Assembly (NCBI RefSeq): GCF_000315625.1
Contig: NW_005434673.1
Location: 1,346,818 to 1,383,042, forward strand
DNA: 36,225 bases
Origin: Guillardia theta CCMP2712
Lineage: Eukaryota > Protista > Cryptophyta
Reading direction: 5' to 3'
The position numbers were made by a program, and so were the translations under genes. The notes beneath the pieces were generated by a model, which saw only the letters and a list, made by a program, of their open reading frames with translations, was not told the DNA's origin and made no database searches. Below are positions 3,000-15,588 of this stretch, in pieces; the first letter of the stretch is position 1, and each line of letters opens with the position of its first letter.

Positions 3000-3290
3000 G
3001 ACGGAATACAAGTTTGTTAGACTTGTACTAGTCCAAAGTCACGCAGATATCACATCGACCTTAGTTGTAACAAGACAGTTTTTGCTCAAGACCGAGTTTA
3101 ATGACAGTGCCGCGTGACACAAAACCAGACTGAGAATTGACTCAGAGGAGCACATGAGAGATAGACTGTATGCTAGGCCGTGATGTGAAACCCAAGCATC
3201 CAGACATGAGAGGACCTTAGCAAGAAAGCTAGGAAAGCCCCCTCTTCGTCCCACACGCTACATTGGCCGCCTCGCCACGTAAGTCGTCTT
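3000..3290 (+). repeat. Direct repeat, copy 1 (~290 bp)
   Basis: Near-identical to 4203-4484 (gacggaatacaagtttgttagacttgtactagtcc ... cgccacgtaagtcgtctt), apart from small indels. Confidence 0.93.
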
Positions 3291-4202: not shown

Positions 4203-4484
4203 GACGGAATACAAGTTTGTTAGACTTGTACTAGTCCAAAGTCACGCAGATATCACATCGACCTTAGTTGTAACAAGACAGTTTTTGCTCAAGACCGAGT
4301 TTAATGACAGTGCACACAAAACCAGAATTGACTCAGAGGAGCACATGAGAGATAGACTGTATGCTAGGCCGTGATGTGAAACCCAAGCATCCAGACATGA
4401 GAGGACCTTAGCAAGAAAGCTAGGAAAGCCCCCTCTTCGTCCCACACGCTATATTGGCCGCCTCAGCGCCACGTAAGTCGTCTT
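4203..4484 (+). repeat. Direct repeat, copy 2 (~280 bp)
   Basis: Matches 3000-3290. The minus-strand ORFs 3039-3254 and 4242-4445 are nearly the same peptide. Confidence 0.93.
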
Positions 4485-4740
4485 GGTTTACATGAGAGTT
4501 TTTGTTAACTCGGCGCTATCTGACTGGCACGGCTGCCTCGCGGCCGGCGAGGCTCCGAGTTTTGGGGTGGCACTGGCTTTCGGGGACTCGGGAGGGGGTG
4601 GGTATCATGGCAGTCAGCTCAGGGCCGGGTCCGCTCGCGGAGTCCGACCGGAATCAGGTAGCCTAGTAGGCCCGGCTCAGTACGCCGGGTATTTGCTGGT
4701 ATTGGGTATGAGGGGGATGATCGCCGTCGCTAATACAAAC

Positions 4741-5598
4741 ATGTCGGCTGCGGGCGGCAGCAGGTCGAGCAAGAGGAGGAGGCTGGAGGGATCAGACGAG
4801 GCGAGGGAGGAGGGAGGAGAAGAAAGGAACGCAAAGGGAACGAAGAAGAGATCGCCAACACGAGGAAGTACTTGCGAGCATGGACGGCAGCGATCGGTCT
4901 GCAAGGGATGCGGGGGCAGTGGCATATGCGAGCACGGGCGGGTCAGATCGGTCTGCAAGGAGTGCGGGGGGGGCAGCATATGCGAGCACGGGCGGATCAG
5001 ATCGCAATGCAAGGGATGCGGGGGGGCAAGCATATGCGAGCACGGGCGGATCAGATCGGTCTGCAAGGAATGCGGGGGCAGCAGCATATGCGAGCACGGG
5101 CAGCAGCGATCGCAATGCAAGGGATGCGGGGGCAGCGGCATATGCGAGCACGGGCGGCGGCGATCGCAATGCAAGGGATGCGGGGGCAGCAGCATATGCG
5201 AGCACGGGCGGGTCAGATCGGTCTGCAAGGAGTGCGGGGGGGGCAGCATATGCGAGCACGGGCGGATCAGGTCAAAATGCAAGGGATGCGGGGGCAGCGG
5301 CATATGCGAGCACGGGCGGATCAGATCAACATGCAAGGGATGCGGGGGCGGGAGCATATGCGAGCACGGGCGGGTCAGATCGGTCTGCAAGGGATGCGGG
5401 GGCAGCAGCATATGCGAGCACGGGCGGCGGCGATCGCAATGCAAGGGATGCGGGGGCAGCAGCATATGCGAGCACGGGCGGATCAGATCCATATGCAAGG
5501 AGTGCGGGGGGGGCAGCATATGCGAGCACGGGCGGGTCAGATCGAGGTGCAAAGAATGCGGGGGAGGGAGCAGCAGGTACAAGCAGGGGAGGAGCTGA
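4741..5598 (+). CDS. CEHG-repeat protein: basic NLS-like N-terminus plus 13 tandem 18-aa CxH-x6-CxxC putative zinc-binding modules
   Basis: ATG at 4741 gives MSAAGGSRSSKRRRLEG...KKRSPTRGST, followed by 13 units of CEHG-x2-RS-x-CK[GE]CGG-x2-I. It may splice onward at cag|gtacaag near 5577. Confidence 0.75.
   Translation: MSAAGGSRSSKRRRLEGSDEAREEGGEERNAKGTKKRSPTRGSTCEHGRQRSVCKGCGGSGICEHGRVRSVCKECGGGSICEHGRIRSQCKGCGGASICEHGRIRSVCKECGGSSICEHGQQRSQCKGCGGSGICEHGRRRSQCKGCGGSSICEHGRVRSVCKECGGGSICEHGRIRSKCKGCGGSGICEHGRIRSTCKGCGGGSICEHGRVRSVCKGCGGSSICEHGRRRSQCKGCGGSSICEHGRIRSICKECGGGSICEHGRVRSRCKECGGGSSRYKQGRS
4873..5574 (+). repeat. Coding minisatellite, 13 x 54 bp
   Basis: Unit tgcgagcacgggcgg...ggcagcata. 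Units 2 and 7 are identical, as are units 6 and 11. Confidence 0.95.
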
Positions 5599-5767
5599 TC
5601 AGGTGCGGACAAGATGTTGCTGTGTAGCAGGATGACTGGTTTGCAGGATCAGGAGGTGGGCGCCGGGAGGTTGTTGGGTTCGTGCCAGTCAGATAGCACC
5701 CAGAGTTGTTTAATTGAGTTGAACTATCCAGTCGGGAGCATATGCTCATGTGAAGTTTATGATATCT

Positions 5768-7500: not shown

Positions 7501-10333
7501 ACACTACCACATGGCTTCTCCTTCTTCTCCTTCATCACCTCTCCAGGTGCTCCCTCCCCGCTATCCGCCCTCCCTGGATTTCCTCGCTTACAAATCCAGC
7601 AGATACCCTCCAAGTGGTCTCACGTGGACCTCCCGAAGCGACCCCCTTATATGAAGGCTGCCAGGAGTTCTAGGACAGCCGAGTCGGAGTGGACGGCGGC
7701 GTGCCGCGGGCCACTGTGACGGCCCGGTCTGCGGCGGGCCCATCAGTCACGCCGGCAGGCCCGGGCCCCGGCCGGGCCACCCGGGCGGCCGGCGCTCAGC
7801 CGCGCCGGCGGGCGGTCTGTCGGACCGTGCCATCACTGTCCACCACGTCACTGATGAGTCACCGCCGGCGTCCTGACGAAACTTTTCTACCGATCGACCT
7901 TGACGGTCATGCAAGTCACGGACGGCCCGCGCTGGTTACACCAGGGGAGGGCTCTAGAAGTTCCCAGACGCCGCGACAACTTCGGAAAACAGCCGACCAA
8001 GTCAGCATAAGGGCGGAGACGACCTGTCTCGAATAATCGAGAGGAGTGTAGAAGGGGCGAGAGGTGGGGCAAGTTTTTTAAAAAAGGCTGGTACTAAACT
8101 AATCCCTTGAAAAGATTCATTTTCAACAGAAACACTTCTAAATTGTTTTATTTATAAGACACAGAACGTCTCGGCGCATCTGGAATGGGACCCCTCAAAG
8201 AGCCCTCTACGGGAGGGGTGGACTCGGACAAGGTTCACAATATCATGATGGCAGGGTGGGAGGAGCAAGAAGGATTGAAAAAGTCAGTAATTTGGGGGTA
8301 TTTGGATGCTAATCAAGGGGTGGGGGGTGGAGTCCCCCAGGGTAGTTGCTCAGGGTTCCTTTTTGAGATACTACGACCCACCCTCGTTTGACCTTTCAGA
8401 TACACCGGTGCTTCCTATGCGTACTCGGACTCGCATCCCGATACGTACTTGAAGGTCCTAGGAGGCTAATAGTTTACTTTTAGGTCCTATAACCCACCCA
8501 CCTCTGGCTGACCATGAACTTGTGCGTTCATATCACCCCAACCCCTATATTCCCTGTTCCTAATACCCCTGTGATTGGACTGAGGGTCTCTTTGGTAGCA
8601 TTGTGATACTCTTCCTACGAGTTCCTATGACCACATAAAATGTCTAAATTGATTTTATTTCATCCCCCTACTGTCGCGCGACTACTCCCAAACCTTCCAG
8701 AAGAATTTTGGCCCCCCCGCCCTCCACCTACCCCTCGAAAAGAAGTTTCCACTACCCACTACCCCATATTTGGTAGATGTTTGAGATGTCACCCTTCCAA
8801 ATCTCACTTTGTTTTCAATGTACCCGTTAAAATACCCAAAATATATCATCTCTACATAGGTAGGGTTGTACTGGAACCCTTGAATCTGATCAATTTTTGT
8901 ACACCCCCCCTTCTTCAAACTCATCTAGTACCCCCTACCCTAGCCATTTCGTTTCTGTTCGCTCGTTCTTTTACACATCCATCGTGTTACCACCACCTCC
9001 CACACACACCCCTGCTTACTGACAAAATACCCACCCTCAGTTTGACAACCCCAGTAAAATCTATTATGGGTTTCTAGTGTCCTGTTGGAGCCCTTGGGGA
9101 AATATATCCCCCTGAATACTATTGTCACACTTATATTTTCTTCCCTCTTCACACATACCTCTGGCAAATTCATCCCTTGGTCTCCAGCACCCCCCGGAAA
9201 AACACCAATTCTCAAGTAATTCATCTAAAGGACCGGTACATAAGTACCCCCACCAAACCTTTTTCTCCCCTTTCAACACTTAAGTCCCACCCTTTAATTC
9301 TTGCCCCTGCACACCCCACCCCAGATAGAGACACGTCATGACCCCCACCCTACTTCTTTACCTCAATTTACCCACCCTCCGTAGTACCATCATTACCAGT
9401 ATAGAAGGCCCCACCCTCGATTCAGACATGCACCCCATTGGGGGCTGTACCCACCCCACTATCCAGTCGTTATTGAGTACCATGCTTGATCCGGCTGAAA
9501 GGACCGGTTCTGTGCATACCACCCCCATGTTTTTCCCCTGTACTGATCTTCCGACCCACCCGCCCATGGCGCGCTAGCGGTCGTGTAGTTCATTTATGCA
9601 GGGTCGCGTCACTTGGGCATGCTGACAAGTGCGAAGTGATTGTGTGATGTAGTGTTCGTGTTTGCACCAACATCATTCATCATTTCCACATGATACATTA
9701 CGATTGATTGTAATCCATCTAAAAAACGTTCCCATGAGGAAGGAGTGACAAATTGGAGAGGTGTACAGCCGCGTGCTTGATGAAGAGGTTCATTGTTTTC
9801 CCATCTTCCATCGTCCCATTTCGTGATTCCTGTCTGTTTCTGCCCCTTACGCTCGTTTCCCATATTGTTGTGAGATGAAAGTAGTCACAAACAAAAATAC
9901 TCGGCCAAGTAGAAAGGGAGCGAACTGTTGGTTAGGATCAGACTTGTGTGTATGATAAAGAACTTCCATAGTCTTGTGTATCTTTTTAGACAGATGCTGC
10001 GGTGCTCGTTACTGCACATGTAAGGAGGGCTTCCAGTACGAGATCCTGCATGAGAGAAGAGAGTTCGCGTTTGGGGATGTTGATGGAGGAAGGAAAAGGA
10101 TCATGTTGCACTTTCATACAAAACTTCTCTGACACCTGGTTTACCCAGACATCCTTCATTTGCAATTCATCGTTAAACATTACCATTGGACAAAACGTAT
10201 CGGCAGTGAATGGGTGGTGTTGAGCACTGCTACATGACGACATACATCGGTTTCTACCTTGCCAGATCTGAGGCAATTACATCAACTTGTTAGATCGATA
10301 AGTCAAGCGCTTTAATAACAGCGCAGCTCAACG

Positions 10334-12805
10334 ATGGGCGGTTCTTCTAGAAGACGAGCGGCAGCCCTGGTTGGCAAACAAGGAAGGGATGTGGCGGTTC
10401 ACCAGAAGTCAACTTCCCCATCCAAGGCCTCTACTAGCGCAGGGTCCTCGGAGAGCGGAGACTCGCAGAGCAAGTCCTCAGCTCTCGTGGATGGCTTTGC
10501 GCTGTTTGCTCTCGCGATCCAGGATCACCTGCGGTCGAAGCTCAAGGCCACTGCTGGAGGAGATGGAGTGCCCGATGAAGCTGTGTACAAGGAACTTAGA
10601 CGCTTGTGGAAGGAAATGGGCGAGAATCAAAGATTGGAGTGGCAGAGTCAGGCGGCAATGGTGCCACCTACACAATCGCAAGACAGCAGCTCGCTGAACG
10701 AGGATGAGGATGACTCGTCGCAGGACTCCTCGGGTGCTTCCTTATCGGCCAAGGCAGATACCAAGAGCGAGGCATCGGAAGAGGTTTCCGACAAGAATTC
10801 AGAAGCAGCGAAGGCTGCTGCCAACAACGATGTGAAGGGAAGTGACAACGTACAAGTTGCGGCAGCTCCACCTCAGCTGCCCAAGATCTCTACCATCGAA
10901 GAAGGCCTACAAGGGCAAGGATGCATCGCGGTGGGACAGCTGACCAACTCTGCGGACGTCGCGAGTATGGCTGGGAAGACCGAGGGTTTTGGAAGCGTCG
11001 AAGGTCAACGCAGGCTACCGGACATCGAGCAAGTTGTGCGTGGGGAGATGATGAGCAATCTCATACATACTCTCGCAAGCAACAATGGCCGGCCCGTGGG
11101 TCTGGATGCCCGTCTGTCGGGGCTGATGCACATGAACAATGGATGTCAGTCGCAGTGCCCTCAGAGAGATGAATTATTCTTTCCGCAGACGACGCAGGCG
11201 GCTGCAAACATGAGCAACATGCTGCTGGATTCAAGATTCCTGCAGCAGTCGCAGATGAATCGGTTCTACAACACGGGACTGCTCCCTGGGCCGTTCCAGG
11301 ACAGCAAACCTCTCCCTTCCATGATGCTTCCTTCAGCCAACGTGTTCATGTCGCGAAATTCCTTGGGACAAGGGAGCTCTGATCCTTCCTTCTCCTCCTT
11401 CGCAGCTGGGCAGCAACTGGCGGCGTCTCAAGCCATGGGCTCGCCACACTCCTTCCCTGTTTACATGCCTTTCTCCATGAACGCAGACAAGGGTCTAAAC
11501 GGAAATGCGATGGGGAGGATAAGTGGGGGGATGAACATGCAGGCCCAGGGGCCGAGCAGGATGATGGCTGGGGGCTGGCAGGGGAGGGAGGAGTACAAGG
11601 CGATGCCTTACTCGCTCAAACGAGGAGCAGACGGCAAGTCCCGGCAGCCCGTCATGCAGGGGCCGCGGCCGCAACCGGAACCGCCGCAAGTGAGGACGAT
11701 GACGTTTGTGTGCGACCTGTTTTCGCCCTACGAGGGTCAGATCTCCCTCCAAGTGCTGGCGGAACAGTGTAAGATCGTGGACTCGGGCTTCGGCATCGTC
11801 GGGCTGTCCTGCCAGCTGTCGACGCCTGAGGGAGCGAAGGTGGTGAAACGAGGGCAAGTGAAGGACGCAAGGAGACACTTCGCGTACGTGCATGAGAGGA
11901 TGGGAGACGGTGGCAACTGACTTTGACCGCAGGCATCAGGCCCAGCTACGGTTGTCCCTCGCCAGCTCCCCCAACCTCAGCGTGAAAGTTTTCTCTACTG
12001 GTCGCCTTCAGATCGCCGGCTGTCACGACGAGACGTCCTGCATGGAGGCAGTCAGGATCGTCGCGCACGCGCTCAACGATATCTTTGAGCGATCGCCTTC
12101 CATCATGAAGCGCCAGGTCAAGGCTGGCCAGGACCCAGCTGGGGTCAAGCTGGATGGGAAGATCGACATCAACAAGCTCCCTCTCCCCAAGATTGTGATG
12201 ATTAACTGCTCCTTCGACTCGGTAAGATTCTTACTTCTCCCCCTACCTCTCCTCCTCAGCCTCATCTCAAGACGATCACGATACTGTTTTCCTAAACCTC
12301 ATCCGTTATCCTGTAGGGCATGGCAGCGCTTGGTTACGGATTGGACCCGCACAAGCTGACTGAGCTGCTTCACAAAGTGCAGGAGAGCAGCGCGAGTGTG
12401 GAGGAGGTTTCCTACAACCCAGACCAGGTACATCTACATCTTGTTGTAACTCTCCTCTCCTTCCTCCTCCACCTCGTCCATCTCTCTCCCCCTTGTCTCG
12501 TCCTCTCCCCTGATTTCCAAGTTTCACTTTGTCTGTAGCGCTACACTGGAGTCAAGGTCAAGTTCAAGCCTACGGTGGTTGGAGCCAACGGGCAGAAGGC
12601 GGCGCTGTCGGATCGAGAGATCTTCATTGGGATGTTCCCATCCGGCAAGGCAGTGATCACGGGGGCAGTGCGGTGGGAGGAAGTGAGCGAAACGTACGAG
12701 TTTGCCAAGTCAATCTTGTGCGATAACTTCGACCTCCTCCGGGTGCCCCTGTCGCAGTCCGAAGTCTCGTCGAGGAAGAAGCAGCGCAAGGCTGGACCAG
12801 GTTGA
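10334..12805 (+). CDS. HMG-box + low-complexity linker + TATA-binding-protein-like (NCLDV-type) fusion protein, ~738 aa
   Basis: Exons 10334-11883, 11933-12221, 12317-12427 and 12539-12805 are joined by GT-AG introns, all in phase. N-terminal HMG-like segment: DGFALFALAIQDHLRSKLK...VYKELRRLWKEMGENQRLEWQSQA. C-terminal two-repeat TBP fold: VRTMTFVCDL...HFAHQAQLRL...NLSVKVFSTGRLQIAGC and IVMINCSFD...YNPDQRYTGVKVKF...IGMFPSGKAVITGA...YEFAKSIL. It ends in RKKQRK. Confidence 0.85.
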
Positions 12806-13106
12806 GGAGGAGGAGAGGAGGAGGAGAAGGCGGGTATTCGTGTACATGATGTGATCCTAGTGTATAGCTCAAGTGTTGCAATTTGTTCATCCAGCCATGT
12901 GTCATAGCATTAAATCAAAGAACTCCTTCTTGTTTCCCCGTCTTCTTTGTTGTCCCCCTCCTCATCTTCCGCCTTCTCCTCCTCCTCATCATCTCAACGC
13001 TGTCTCTTCCCCGTGTTTTCTTGCTCCTGCAATCACTGTCTCGTTGGTTCTCCTGCCTGATCGAGCCAGCCGCTTTCATACACTCATTGATCGTTGGTCC
13101 CTTCCG

Positions 13107-14968
13107 CTACTCTTCCTCCTCTAGCGTATGTCGAACGTATTTCTTCCGCAGCTCCTCGATGTTCTTGATCGTCACCTGCTCCAGATTCTTTCTGTTCTTC
13201 CGCAGCTTCACAACCTGCCAACAACATCTCAGTCTCCTTACTCCCCTCCCCCCTCTCCCTCCTCCTTCGCTTCTCTTCGCGTTTTCTTTTTCTCACGTCA
13301 GACGGGGACATGGTCTGCTGCTTCCTTGTCTTCCTCAGAGACAGGACGATGCTCAAGGCCGTTCCCTGCGACACGTCAGGCCTCGTCGAGAGAAGTGCGC
13401 GGAACCAGGAGGAGGAGGATGGCAAAAGGAATCCCGCCAGCAGCCTGCGTGATGATGAGAGCGAGCAAACGGGGGGGAGGGAGAGAGGGAGGGAGAGAGG
13501 GAGGGAGAGAGGGAGGGAGGGAGGGAGGGAGAGGAGGGAGAAGAGGGAGAGGAGGGAGATAGTAGGCAGGGAAGGGAAGGGAAGGGAGGGAACAGCACCT
13601 TAAACGCCATGCAGTAGAAATTTTTGCGCGCCTGCCACAAAGTTGAGATCAGGCGTATAGCAGGAAGATCGGGGAAGGAGGATGAGGGGAGCGAGGATGT
13701 AGAGCAGGAGACGTGGCATTAGAGTAGTGTCAGTTGAGCGGGAGGGGAGGGGAAGGAGGGGCCGGTGGATGGTGGGGAGGAAGGGGGGGAAGCAGATAAA
13801 GGAGGACGAGGAGCAGGAGTTGACCGGAAGTCGCTCCTCTTCTATTGTGTTGTCTGCATATGTCCACTCGATCGTTCGCCCGTGCTGAAGTGAAACGTCA
13901 TGGGGAGCGAGTGAGAGACGGAGGAAGTTTGGATGACATTCGGAGGAGGGAAGGGGAGGTTGGAGCTCGTAGGAGAACGAGGAATGAAGGAGGGAGAGGG
14001 CAGGGAGGGAGGGCAAGGAGGAACGAGAGGGAAAGCAAAGGGCCAAGTGAAGATAGCAAGGAATTTAGCAGAGTAACAAGCAAGAGAGGACGAGAACGAG
14101 GACCAAGAAGATTAAAAGGAAGGATGGATGGGAGGGAGGGGAGAGGGAGGGAGGGAAGAAGGAAGAAGGCAGGAAACGGGAGGGGAGGAGGAGGAAGGGA
14201 GGAGACGAGAGGAAGGGAGAAGAGGAAGGGAGGGAGGAGGATATCAAGCAGGGGCAGGGAAGGAGGTGCGGCGGGGAGGAGGAAGTAGAGGGGCNNNNNN
14301 NNNNNNNNNNNNNNNNNNNNNNNNNNNNNNNNNNNNNNNNNNNNNNNNNNNNNNNNNNNNNNNNNNNNNNNNNNNNNNNNNNNNNNNNNNNNNNCCTCCT
14401 CCTCTCCTCTCCTCCTCCTCTCCTCCTCCTCTCCTCTCCTCTCCTTTCTCTCGTCCTTTTCCCCCTCCAGATCCTCCTTCCTCCCCTCCTCCCCCTCCCC
14501 TTCGCGCGATCTCTCTCTCTCTTCTCCCCCCCTCGATTCTCATGCTCTCTCACCGCAGCTCGTCGAAGCCACGGAAACGCGCTGCTCGTCTGCCTTCCTT
14601 TCCATCGCGCTCGTTTACCTCCTTTGCGTATGAGACAGAACCCGGCTGTCTCCATGGCGACGCTCTCGACCTGCACCTTCTCTCCCACATACCAGTTGAC
14701 CTGGACGAGCTCGTCACATGACGAGGACGGTCATAAGGACGCCATGGCATCAACGGCTGGAGCACGATTGTAGTGGAGGAGGAAGCGGTGGAGAGAGACG
14801 CTCGAGGAGGAAGGCGCGAGGTCGCAGGTGAGAGGTCAACAACGCAAGCAGGTGACTTACGAACGATGACTTCCCCGCTGAGTGGTTGCCGATGAGGAGA
14901 CAGGTGGTCCGATCCTTTCCGAGGTCTGCCCCATCCTCTTCATCGCTTCCATGGTCCTCCTTCGACAT
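13107..14968 (-). CDS. P-loop GTPase (dynamin/EHD-like, GNHSAGKSSF-NWY type) with a C-terminal hydrophobic segment; interrupted by an assembly gap
   Basis: Exon 14861-14968 gives TCLLIGNHSAGKSSF (Walker A), and exon 14554-14700 gives VNWYVGEKVQVESVAMETAGFCLIRKG. Small downstream exons (ARKNFYCMAFK, AAGGIPFAILLLLVP) end in VVKLRKNRKNLEQ...HTLEEEE* at 13107. The middle of the gene falls in the N gap, so linkage of the two halves is inferred. Confidence 0.65.
14295..14394. other. Assembly gap (100 N)
   Basis: Run of N flanked by GA/CT low-complexity intron sequence. Confidence 0.99.
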
Positions 14969-15588
14969 ATCGCCGCCGACTCTTTGCCTCGCATCCTATG
15001 GACGAGGTGAGAGGAGGGGCGGGAGGAGCATGAGACTATCTTTGTCCCTCTTACCTGAAGCTCTTTCCTCATCCTCTCCCTCTCTTCCTTCATCTTCCCC
15101 ACCTCCTCCCACCATGCTTCTTCGCCCATGCTGTGTGTGCCCAATTTCCCAACCTCACCCCCCTCAATTCGTTACCTACCCAACCTTTTGACAAAAGTAT
15201 GACCCTACCCTGATAAATTCCTTTGAGATTTGTTCTGTGAAATTACTTTCGTACCCCTACTACAAGTACCCCTGGGATACCCACCCACCCTTATTCATCA
15301 TGACCCCTGCCGGCCTCCGTGCATGTGATGTCATGATCGGAAGGAAGCAATGACCAGCAAGACAAGATTGTATGACATGCAATGAGAACAAGAAGGAAAG
15401 ATCCAACAAACAAGCACAGTTCCAACAAACAAGCATAATTCCAACAGGACATCTGCTCTCTCTTCTTGTAGACCAACATATCTACAACCACCTCATTTCT
15501 TGACCTGCGATGAAAGAATTTAATAAAATTATGAATAGAGTCTATTTACACATCGATAAGAAGAGAAAGAGAGCATGAGGAAGGATTT

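What the first reader, a model, noticed from the sequence alone, without database searches (positions are those of the whole stretch)
10334..12805. Intron-containing giant-virus-type TBP-like domain fused to an HMG box
Seen: four in-phase exons encode an HMG-box-like N-terminus (~10484-10657), an acidic S-rich then Q/M/G/P-rich linker, a two-repeat TBP fold (from ~11681) and a terminal RKKQRK. Established: canonical eukaryotic TBP has LQNIV...YNPKRFAAVIMR...LIFxSGK...IQNIV...YEPELFPGL. This protein instead shows RTMT...FxxQ...VKVFxxGxxQIxGC...IVMINxxF...YxGVKVKF, with inserted loops. I recall that pattern from nucleocytoviral (Mimiviridae/Phycodnaviridae) TBP-like proteins. Inference: a viral-type TBP has been domesticated (spliceosomal introns, host-like codon usage) and joined to a second minor-groove DNA-bending domain and an activation-domain-like linker. 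It could be a promoter-selective transcription factor or an antiviral decoy. I know of no described HMG-TBP fusion.
Basis: partly seen in the sequence, partly recalled or inferred. Interest (0 to 1): 0.88.

Follow-up and report, generated by a model that had tools for sequence, protein, structure and literature searches.

The report
Algal gene with giant-virus-type TBP
A spliced, expressed gene of a cryptophyte alga encodes a TATA-binding-protein domain of the kind found in giant viruses, joined to a likely shortened HMG box; it is conserved across cryptophytes and was likely captured from a virus long ago and would act as a second, non-standard promoter-recognition factor.

Summary
Four exons give a 738-aa protein; contigs from five runs of five studies skip all three GT-AG introns. 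The C-terminal domain is a two-lobed TBP (Pfam above cut-off in orthologs) whose nearest look-alikes are Nucleocytoviricota TBPs. It groups with viral TBPs at 100/100, and grouping with canonical eukaryotic TBP is rejected (p 2e-5 and 7e-5). It is not a one-off: the fusion is conserved in Hanusia, Rhodomonas and environmental relatives, and cryptophytes hold at least two further paralogs. The cellular clade is sister to, not shown nested in, the sampled viruses, so virus-to-host transfer is likely but unproven. The N-terminal module is HMG-like by fold, with weak statistics; it is shortened, neutral in charge and lacks the usual intercalating residues, so DNA bending by it is doubtful. The TBP saddle keeps three of four kinking phenylalanines but has a viral-type base-reading face and an altered TFIIB stirrup. 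Best reading: a domesticated viral-type TBP serving as a promoter-selective nuclear factor. Ten literature searches found no description.

The parts
10334..11883 (+). Exon 1: start codon, basic Ser-rich N-terminus, HMG-like module, acidic segment, linker and first half of TBP lobe 1 (aa 1-517)
   Evidence: Open frame; 3' boundary from spliced contigs. ATG chosen by agreement with the Hanusia phi ortholog P0035.
10481..10657 (+). Shortened HMG-box-like module (aa 50-108); predicted helices about 54-74, 81-94, 97-108
   Evidence: 51-88% identity in 7 of 7 homologs compared; model pLDDT 75; first 41 of 46 listed Foldseek rows are HMG proteins, E 0.5 or higher; VIA best Z 8.0, rmsd 3.0-4.4, 63-70 aligned.
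10658..10738 (+). Conserved acidic Ser/Asp/Glu-rich segment after the HMG-like module (aa 109-135)
   Evidence: 37-96% identity in 7 of 7 homologs; composition.
10739..11683 (+). Fast-evolving, predicted disordered linker rich in G/S/Q/A/M/P (Q-rich in other orthologs)
   Evidence: 14-22% identity in 6 of 7 homologs, 67% to Hanusia; pLDDT under 50.
11684..12736 (+). Two-lobed viral-type TBP domain (aa 451-716), across exons 1-4; Phe516, Phe537, Tyr652, Phe683 at the four kinking positions
   Evidence: Pfam PF00352 in exons 2 and 4 and above cut-off in full orthologs; Atlas; alignment and trees.
11884..11932 (+). Intron 1, 49 nt, GT-AG, phase 2
11933..12221 (+). Exon 2
   Evidence: Pfam TBP E 1.7e-4
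12222..12316 (+). Intron 2, 95 nt, GT-AG, phase 0
12317..12427 (+). Exon 3
12428..12538 (+). Intron 3, 111 nt, GT-AG, phase 0
12539..12805 (+). Exon 4 coding part to the stop; includes basic NLS-like RKKQRK at 12773-12790
   Evidence: a basic tail is kept in most family members
12806..12928 (+). 3' UTR to the poly(A) site at about 12927
   Evidence: poly(A) loose ends in raw RNA reads of X22

Best explanation
This is an intact, spliced cryptophyte gene whose TBP domain is of the giant-virus type, likely acquired from a large DNA virus before cryptophytes diversified, and it likely works as a promoter-selective nuclear factor beside, not in place of, ordinary TBP. Shown: gene structure, splicing, conservation of both modules, viral-type sequence. 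Inferred steps: (1) the basic C-terminal tail takes it to the host nucleus (no N-terminal signal peptide is apparent, so not the nucleomorph); (2) the saddle binds and kinks the DNA minor groove through Phe516, Phe537, Phe683 and Tyr652; (3) its base-reading face is viral (Thr455, Thr457, Met606, Asn608 where canonical TBP has Asn, Val, Asn, Val), so it would prefer an element other than the canonical TATA box; (4) the TFIIB stirrup has lost its first glutamate and a 30-residue insertion replaces the opposite stirrup, so it would couple poorly to host TFIIB and TFIIA and would instead act through the disordered linker and the HMG-like plus acidic module, which more likely contacts chromatin or partner proteins than bends DNA.
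For: Splicing. Conservation pattern: TBP lobes 70-99% and HMG-like module 51-88% identical, linker 14-22% beyond Hanusia. Atlas: 30 of 30 feature hits are TBP clusters, the top three 96-100% viral, score 0.96; structure TM 0.75 to a viral cluster. BLAST bits of the domain: viral contigs 68, archaeal 38.5, canonical eukaryotic 30. 11 sites shared with viral and not canonical TBP against 1 the other way; 7 of the 11 lie outside the motifs used to collect rows. Two insertions shared with viral TBPs: L462-F516 spans 54 residues (viral 41-91, canonical 23-28); G546-I607 spans 61 (viral 41-131, canonical 35-37). Tree 100/100, stem 1.86; AU tests. PMC7221094 (passages): viral TBPs keep DNA-contact positions but diverge at the TFIIB-binding glutamates and form orthogonal systems. 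PMC2275077 (passages): free HMGB proteins assist TBP at promoters.
Against: No binding or functional data. The cellular clade is sister to the sampled viruses (viral side only 84/86), not inside them; no close viral donor was found in IMG/VR. In the careful tree the whole viral-type branch attaches inside the canonical eukaryotic rows, whereas the quick tree kept those rows together, so its root is unsure and long branches are in play. HMG statistics are weak (Pfam below cut-off; Atlas 0.88; Foldseek E 0.5 or higher; VIA Z 8, under the tool's caution level for helical folds). Three clade members come from records without an organism name (P0083, P0089, P0164), so the range may be wider than cryptophytes. 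A canonical TBP in the host was not checked because no genome was held.
Confidence: 0.55

Rival explanations
1. The clade is an old cellular TBP paralog, kept in cryptophytes and a few other lineages, that shares an ancestor with or gave rise to the viral TBPs; no virus-to-host transfer took place.
For: Best trees put the 17 cellular-type rows as sister to all 30 viral or virus-like rows; at least three deep paralogs exist; P0083, P0089 and P0164 are only 30-35% identical and unnamed; no viral contig carries the clade's motifs.
Against: A profile search of 1.84 billion representatives returned only a handful of full-length clade members before reaching virus-like proteins, and every named member is a cryptophyte, so this needs loss in nearly all eukaryotes; the same TBP type is named in Mimiviridae, HaV, Marseillevirus, Pithovirus and asfa-like viruses; nesting among viruses is not rejected.
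Confidence: 0.2
2. The protein is a repressor or chromatin-architectural factor: the saddle occupies AT-rich DNA without recruiting polymerase, and the HMG-like plus acidic module binds histones or folds back to gate the saddle.
For: First TFIIB-stirrup glutamate absent in 8 of 8 fused-group and 4 of 4 short-paralog rows; the module is neutral and followed by a conserved acidic tract, as in HMGB1 and SSRP1 (recalled); SSRP1 is the top PDB profile hit, E 0.43.
Against: Second stirrup position stays acidic in 12 of 12 rows; the Q/M/P-rich linker resembles activation regions (composition only).
Confidence: 0.15
3. It is an antiviral decoy that binds giant-virus promoters or viral TFIIB and blocks infection.
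For: Viral-type DNA-reading face; viral TBP and TFIIB co-evolve as orthogonal pairs (PMC7221094, passages); an NCLDV marker was reported in Guillardia theta (PMC5294986, table passage).
Against: 97-99% identity of the TBP lobes to Hanusia and 70-84% to distant full-length orthologs looks like housekeeping constraint, not an arms race; transcripts are present in several ordinary data sets; an NLS-like tail points to the nucleus while many such viruses transcribe in the cytoplasm (recalled).
Confidence: 0.07
4. It is a fast-evolving duplicate of the host's canonical TBP (TRF/TLF-like), drawn to viral sequences by long-branch attraction.
For: Long stem (1.86); the joint viral-type branch attaches within canonical eukaryotic rows in the careful tree; TRF/TBPL1 and dinoflagellate TLF were not sampled.
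Against: AU rejects the cellular clade plus canonical TBP under LG+G4 (p 2.2e-5, 38 rows) and under the mixture model (p 6.8e-5, 26 rows); specific shared residues and two shared insertions.
Confidence: 0.03

Closest known systems
Nucleocytoviricota TBP-like proteins (Mimiviridae and relatives, HaV, Marseillevirus, ASFV B263R)
   Same: Two-lobed TBP fold; shared residues (Thr455/457, Gln519, Lys535, Gln543, Cys547, Met606, Asn608, Phe611) and two shared insertions; Tyr/His in place of the third Phe; variable TFIIB stirrup.
   Different: Host gene with three spliceosomal introns and GC3 0.69 (viral loci fetched are 18-48% GC); only about 25% identical to the nearest viral proteins; carries a 450-residue N-terminal extension with an HMG-like module; no viral neighbours in the window.
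Canonical eukaryotic and archaeal TBP (PF00352)
   Same: Fold, both L5.1 phenylalanines (Phe537, Phe683), Phe516, the SGK-x-x-ITGA end of lobe 2.
   Different: Core about 255 residues against 165; both central Asn and both flanking Val replaced; Tyr at the third kinking site; first TFIIB glutamate lost; separated by a stem of 1.86 changes per site.
HMG-box proteins (HMGB/Nhp6, SSRP1, UBF, SOX)
   Same: Predicted three-helix L-shape; aromatic core Phe55, Phe58, Trp92, Trp103; acidic tract following the box.
   Different: About 59 residues; no basic Pro-containing N-terminal strand; third helix about 12 residues; 8 basic against 9 acidic residues; Ala56 and Asp81 at the usual intercalating positions (roles of those positions recalled); covalently joined to a TBP domain, whereas Hmo1/Nhp6 act with TBP as separate proteins.
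Metazoan TRF2/TBPL1 and dinoflagellate TLF (recalled, not compared here)
   Same: TBP paralogs with altered DNA contacts that serve gene subsets.
   Different: Those derive from canonical TBP; this clade groups with viral TBP.

Membership tests
TBP family (PF00352) | Pfam score above the curated cut-off, two lobes | tested here: met
   P0002 33.2 bits against 22.9, two stretches; 10 of 10 further clade members above cut-off. Single window exons score 21.8 and 16.5.
TBP family (PF00352) | Saddle fold | tested here: met
   Atlas model of P0035 aligns over 240 residues, TM 0.75, to a TBP cluster. My own single-sequence model was poor (pLDDT 41), though its top PDB hits are all TBP.
Canonical TBP | Four intercalating Phe | tested here: not met
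   Phe516, Phe537, Phe683 kept; Tyr652 in 12 of 12 cryptophyte A/B rows. Four-Phe role from PMC5809078 (passages).
Canonical TBP | Asn/Val base-reading motif in both lobes | tested here: not met
   Thr455/Thr457 and Met606/Asn608; functional role of these positions recalled.
Canonical TBP | Two TFIIB-binding glutamates (C.L3.2, C.L3.4) | tested here: not met
   Asn647 and Asp649 by my alignment; definition from PMC7221094.
Canonical TBP | Clade with canonical eukaryotic TBP | tested here: not met
   AU p 2.2e-5 and 6.8e-5.
Nucleocytoviricota-type TBP | Groups with viral TBPs to the exclusion of cellular canonical TBP | tested here: met
   100/100; shared residues and insertions.
Nucleocytoviricota-type TBP | Nested inside viral diversity (viral donor) | tested here: inconclusive
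   Sister position in best trees; three nestings not rejected, p 0.106, 0.328, 0.10; viral sampling biased to one motif class.
Nucleocytoviricota-type TBP | Partner TFIIB of viral type in the same genome | not testable with these tools
   No host genome held.
Endogenous giant-virus element | Neighbouring viral genes, foreign composition, silence or decay | tested here: not met
   Window ORFs scanned gave TPR, anoctamin, C2, TIL/EGF and PAP2 matches and no viral hallmark (50 window ORF stretches other than the gene's own exons); gene is spliced, polyadenylated and intact.
HMG box | Pfam score above cut-off | tested here: not met
   5 of 8 members match HMG_box or HMG_box_2 weakly, best E 0.0057; window 13.9 bits against 22.4.
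HMG box | Three-helix L-shaped fold with aromatic core | tested here: met
   Model pLDDT 75; first 41 of 46 listed rows are HMG proteins, rmsd down to 1.3-2 A over 58-59 columns; Z 8.0. Statistics modest.
HMG box | Basic DNA-binding face, intercalating residues, full third helix | tested here: not met
   Net charge -1; Ala56 in 8 of 8 and Asp/Asn81 in 8 of 8 rows, register; helix 3 of 12 residues.
HMG box | Binds and bends DNA | not testable with these tools
   Needs a binding assay.

The most novel reading that the evidence does not exclude
Cryptophytes captured a giant-virus TBP early, expanded it into at least three paralogs and fused one to an HMG-like module and activation-type linker, giving a eukaryotic lineage a second, virus-derived promoter-recognition system orthogonal to TFIID.
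Probability: 0.35. Interest if true: 0.88.

Novelty: new variant of a known kind. Interest (0 to 1): 0.72.

Why it matters
TBP is among the most conserved eukaryotic proteins and the known paralogs derive from the cell's own gene. A lineage-wide, strongly conserved family of viral-type TBPs in a host nucleus would show that a core initiation factor can be domesticated from a virus. It also gives a culturable, non-viral system in which to ask what DNA element and which partners giant-virus TBPs use, which is open. The HMG-TBP fusion would hard-wire a partnership known only between separate proteins.

Tried and rejected
Single-sequence fold of the full-length ortholog was unusable (pLDDT 41). 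A whole-protein profile found no HMG in PDB; P0039 found nothing relevant. Scans of viral contigs with cryptophyte-type motifs or single divergent proteins found no relative; these are exact-pattern scans and weak evidence of absence. No match in the phage collection. The 68-row mixture AU test did not finish and was replaced by 38-row and 26-row subsets. The look-up of sequencing runs listed no holder on record as RNA. Run X12 (organism C) covered only scraps and gave no cross-species splice data. Earlier-findings look-ups returned nothing. Rejected: separate genes (one open exon spans both modules), pseudogene or recent viral insert (intact, spliced, conserved, host neighbours), alternative intron 1 boundaries listed (contigs show only 11884-11932).

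Full report
Gene structure. Exons 10334-11883, 11933-12221, 12317-12427 and 12539-12805 give 738 residues and one stop. The three introns (49, 95, 111 nt; GT..AG) are skipped in contigs of runs X1 and X2 and X4, X6 and X9, five study codes; the tool marks these as guessed RNA. X15 holds the unspliced sequence. The one recorded RNA run, X22, gave 443 reads at the 3' end with poly(A) at 12927/12928, and none over the junctions. Exon 1 runs open from the HMG-like part into the TBP domain, so the two are one gene. GC3 (0.69) is in line with two neighbouring ORFs (0.68, 0.59). The neighbourhood looks like host DNA: TPR, anoctamin, C2, TIL/EGF and PAP2 matches, no viral hallmark in the ORF stretches scanned.

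The family. Three searches of the large protein set found 7, 29 and 7 relatives. Named ones are all cryptophytes: Hanusia phi, Rhodomonas, Proteomonas, Baffinella, Hemiselmis, Cryptomonas, Guillardia theta. The window is closest to Hanusia phi (TBP lobes 99 and 97% identical), so the host is likely a close relative of it (inference). Complete HMG-like plus TBP fusions: the window, P0035/P0002, P0066, P0080 and the P0005/P0050 cluster; four more clusters hold both modules but are cut at introns. Of 7 relatives longer than 569 residues, 6 carry the HMG-like module; P0081 does not and lacks a start Met. Four shorter records of the same group (P0007, P0009, P0010, P0025) lack it and may be 5'-incomplete; this was not resolved. 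A second paralog of about 350 residues (45-49% identical, including G. theta EKX39231) and a third (P0114, P0138) have no HMG module in their records. P0083, P0089 and P0164 are deeper members with no organism given. Identity to the window is 70-99% in complete TBP lobes, 51-88% in the HMG-like module, 37-96% in the acidic segment and 14-22% in the linker beyond Hanusia: both modules are under constraint.

The TBP domain is viral in type. Pfam PF00352 passes its cut-off in full orthologs. The Atlas returns 30 of 30 TBP clusters, the top three 96-100% viral, and a structural match of TM 0.75. A profile search of 1.84 billion representatives (693 hits at E 0.001, best 150 listed) passes from the cellular clade to virus-like proteins; an alignment of 28 of these found 581 relatives among 600 viral stretches. 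Against rows collected here, the domain scores 68 bits with viral contigs, 38.5 with archaeal and 30 with canonical eukaryotic TBP. Eleven sites are shared with viral and not canonical TBP, one the reverse. Rows were collected by motifs, which fixes four of the eleven columns and also the Glu, Glu, Phe of the canonical second stirrup; seven sites (T457, Q519, M606, N608, F611, K658, I680) are free of that bias. Two insertions are shared with viral TBPs.

Trees. From 274 rows I used 90 (quick tree) and 69, less one gappy row (careful tree, 68 rows, 179 columns). The 17 cellular-type rows form a clade (98/96) that joins 30 viral or virus-like rows at 100/100 on a stem of 1.86. Cellular clade plus canonical eukaryotic TBP is rejected (p 2.2e-5, 38 rows; p 6.8e-5, 26 rows, mixture model), as is grouping with archaea (p 6e-7). 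Against a simple story: the clade is sister to the viral rows (84/86), three nestings are not rejected (p 0.10-0.33), and in the careful tree the whole viral-type branch attaches inside the canonical eukaryotic rows. Mirusvirus, poxvirus, asfuvirus, TRF and TLF sequences were not knowingly sampled; mirusviruses carry TBP genes (PMC10132985, passages) and many spliceosomal introns (PMC12768974, passages), so they are a donor candidate and introns alone do not prove host origin. The narrow named range against the wide viral range favours virus-to-host transfer; I put it near 0.7.

The N-terminal module. Sequence evidence is weak: Pfam HMG E 0.088 for the window, best 0.0057 among 8 members; SSRP1 and PMS1 HMG domains appear at E 0.4-1.3; Atlas 0.88. 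A model from the 8-row alignment has three helices (pLDDT 75); the first 41 of 46 listed Foldseek rows are HMG proteins though all have E of 0.5 or more, and the re-alignment of those hits gives Z up to 8.0. NCBI's annotation calls one fragment an HMG-box protein. I accept the fold at about 0.85. It is atypical: no basic N-terminal strand, a 12-residue third helix, 8 basic and 9 acidic residues, Ala56 and Asp/Asn81 where HMG boxes usually intercalate (roles recalled), and a conserved acidic tract behind it. DNA bending by this module is therefore doubtful.

How it would work. All steps here are inferred. The saddle keeps Phe516, Phe537 and Phe683, with Tyr652 at the fourth site; the four-Phe kink is described in PMC5809078 (passages), and PMC7221094 (passages) reports that viral TBPs keep DNA contacts, diverge at the TFIIB glutamates and likely escape host regulators. 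Here those positions are Asn647 and Asp649, and the base-reading residues are viral. The protein would thus bind a non-canonical promoter element in the host nucleus and act through its linker and HMG/acidic module rather than through ordinary TFIIB recruitment. Free HMGB proteins assist TBP in yeast (PMC2275077, passages), which makes the fusion plausible. A repressor or architectural role remains open; the very high conservation argues against an antiviral decoy.

Prior description. Ten full-text searches (listings and abstract starts seen) found no paper on cryptophyte viral-type TBP or an HMG-TBP fusion. PMC7221094 has no mention of Guillardia or cryptophytes in its text or in four supplementary files (one scanned file not searchable). 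PMC5294986 lists an NCLDV marker in G. theta but does not mention TBP (passages). PMC5825884 and PMC8400408 were seen as passages. The library lacks most subscription papers: a large virus-eukaryote gene-transfer survey (not held) and a review of protist TBPs (recalled, not seen) may list the gene in their tables.

Verdict. Real, conserved and apparently undescribed; a new variant of a known protein kind. Interest 0.72.

Noticed in passing
P0005 cluster (42 members, contigs to 20 kb): The whole 822-aa fusion is called as one ORF, i.e. an apparently intronless ortholog; other orthologs are cut at the positions of intron 1 or intron 2, so intron content varies. One fragment (P0039) is deposited in an archaeal MAG, probably mis-binned.
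   Followed up: partly
window 4765-5712: 54-nt tandem array whose ORF (4477-5598) encodes about 14 Cys/His-rich CEHG..C..C repeats; no Pfam match of note. I recall similar repeats in algal and giant-virus proteins.
   Followed up: partly
window 13100-15140, minus strand: Multi-exon gene with a P-loop motif (GNHSAGKSS near 14880), convergent with the TBP-like gene; transcript contigs run through both 3' ends. It spans a 100-base N gap.
   Followed up: partly
window 3000-3273 and 4203-4464: Near-identical dispersed duplication of about 250 nt, 1.2 kb apart.
   Followed up: no
P0083 residues 400-536: A deep clade member carries an extra C-terminal domain with no Pfam match; viral-type TBPs in cells may have fused more than once.
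   Followed up: no
window 8100-9600: Long lower-GC stretch without genes upstream of the gene, with a similar-looking segment near 15150-15300; possibly repeat-derived.
   Followed up: no
L036 and L040: Archaeal-type TBP motif in genomes labelled as bacteria; L036 translates to an archaeal-like TBP, likely bin contamination.
   Followed up: no
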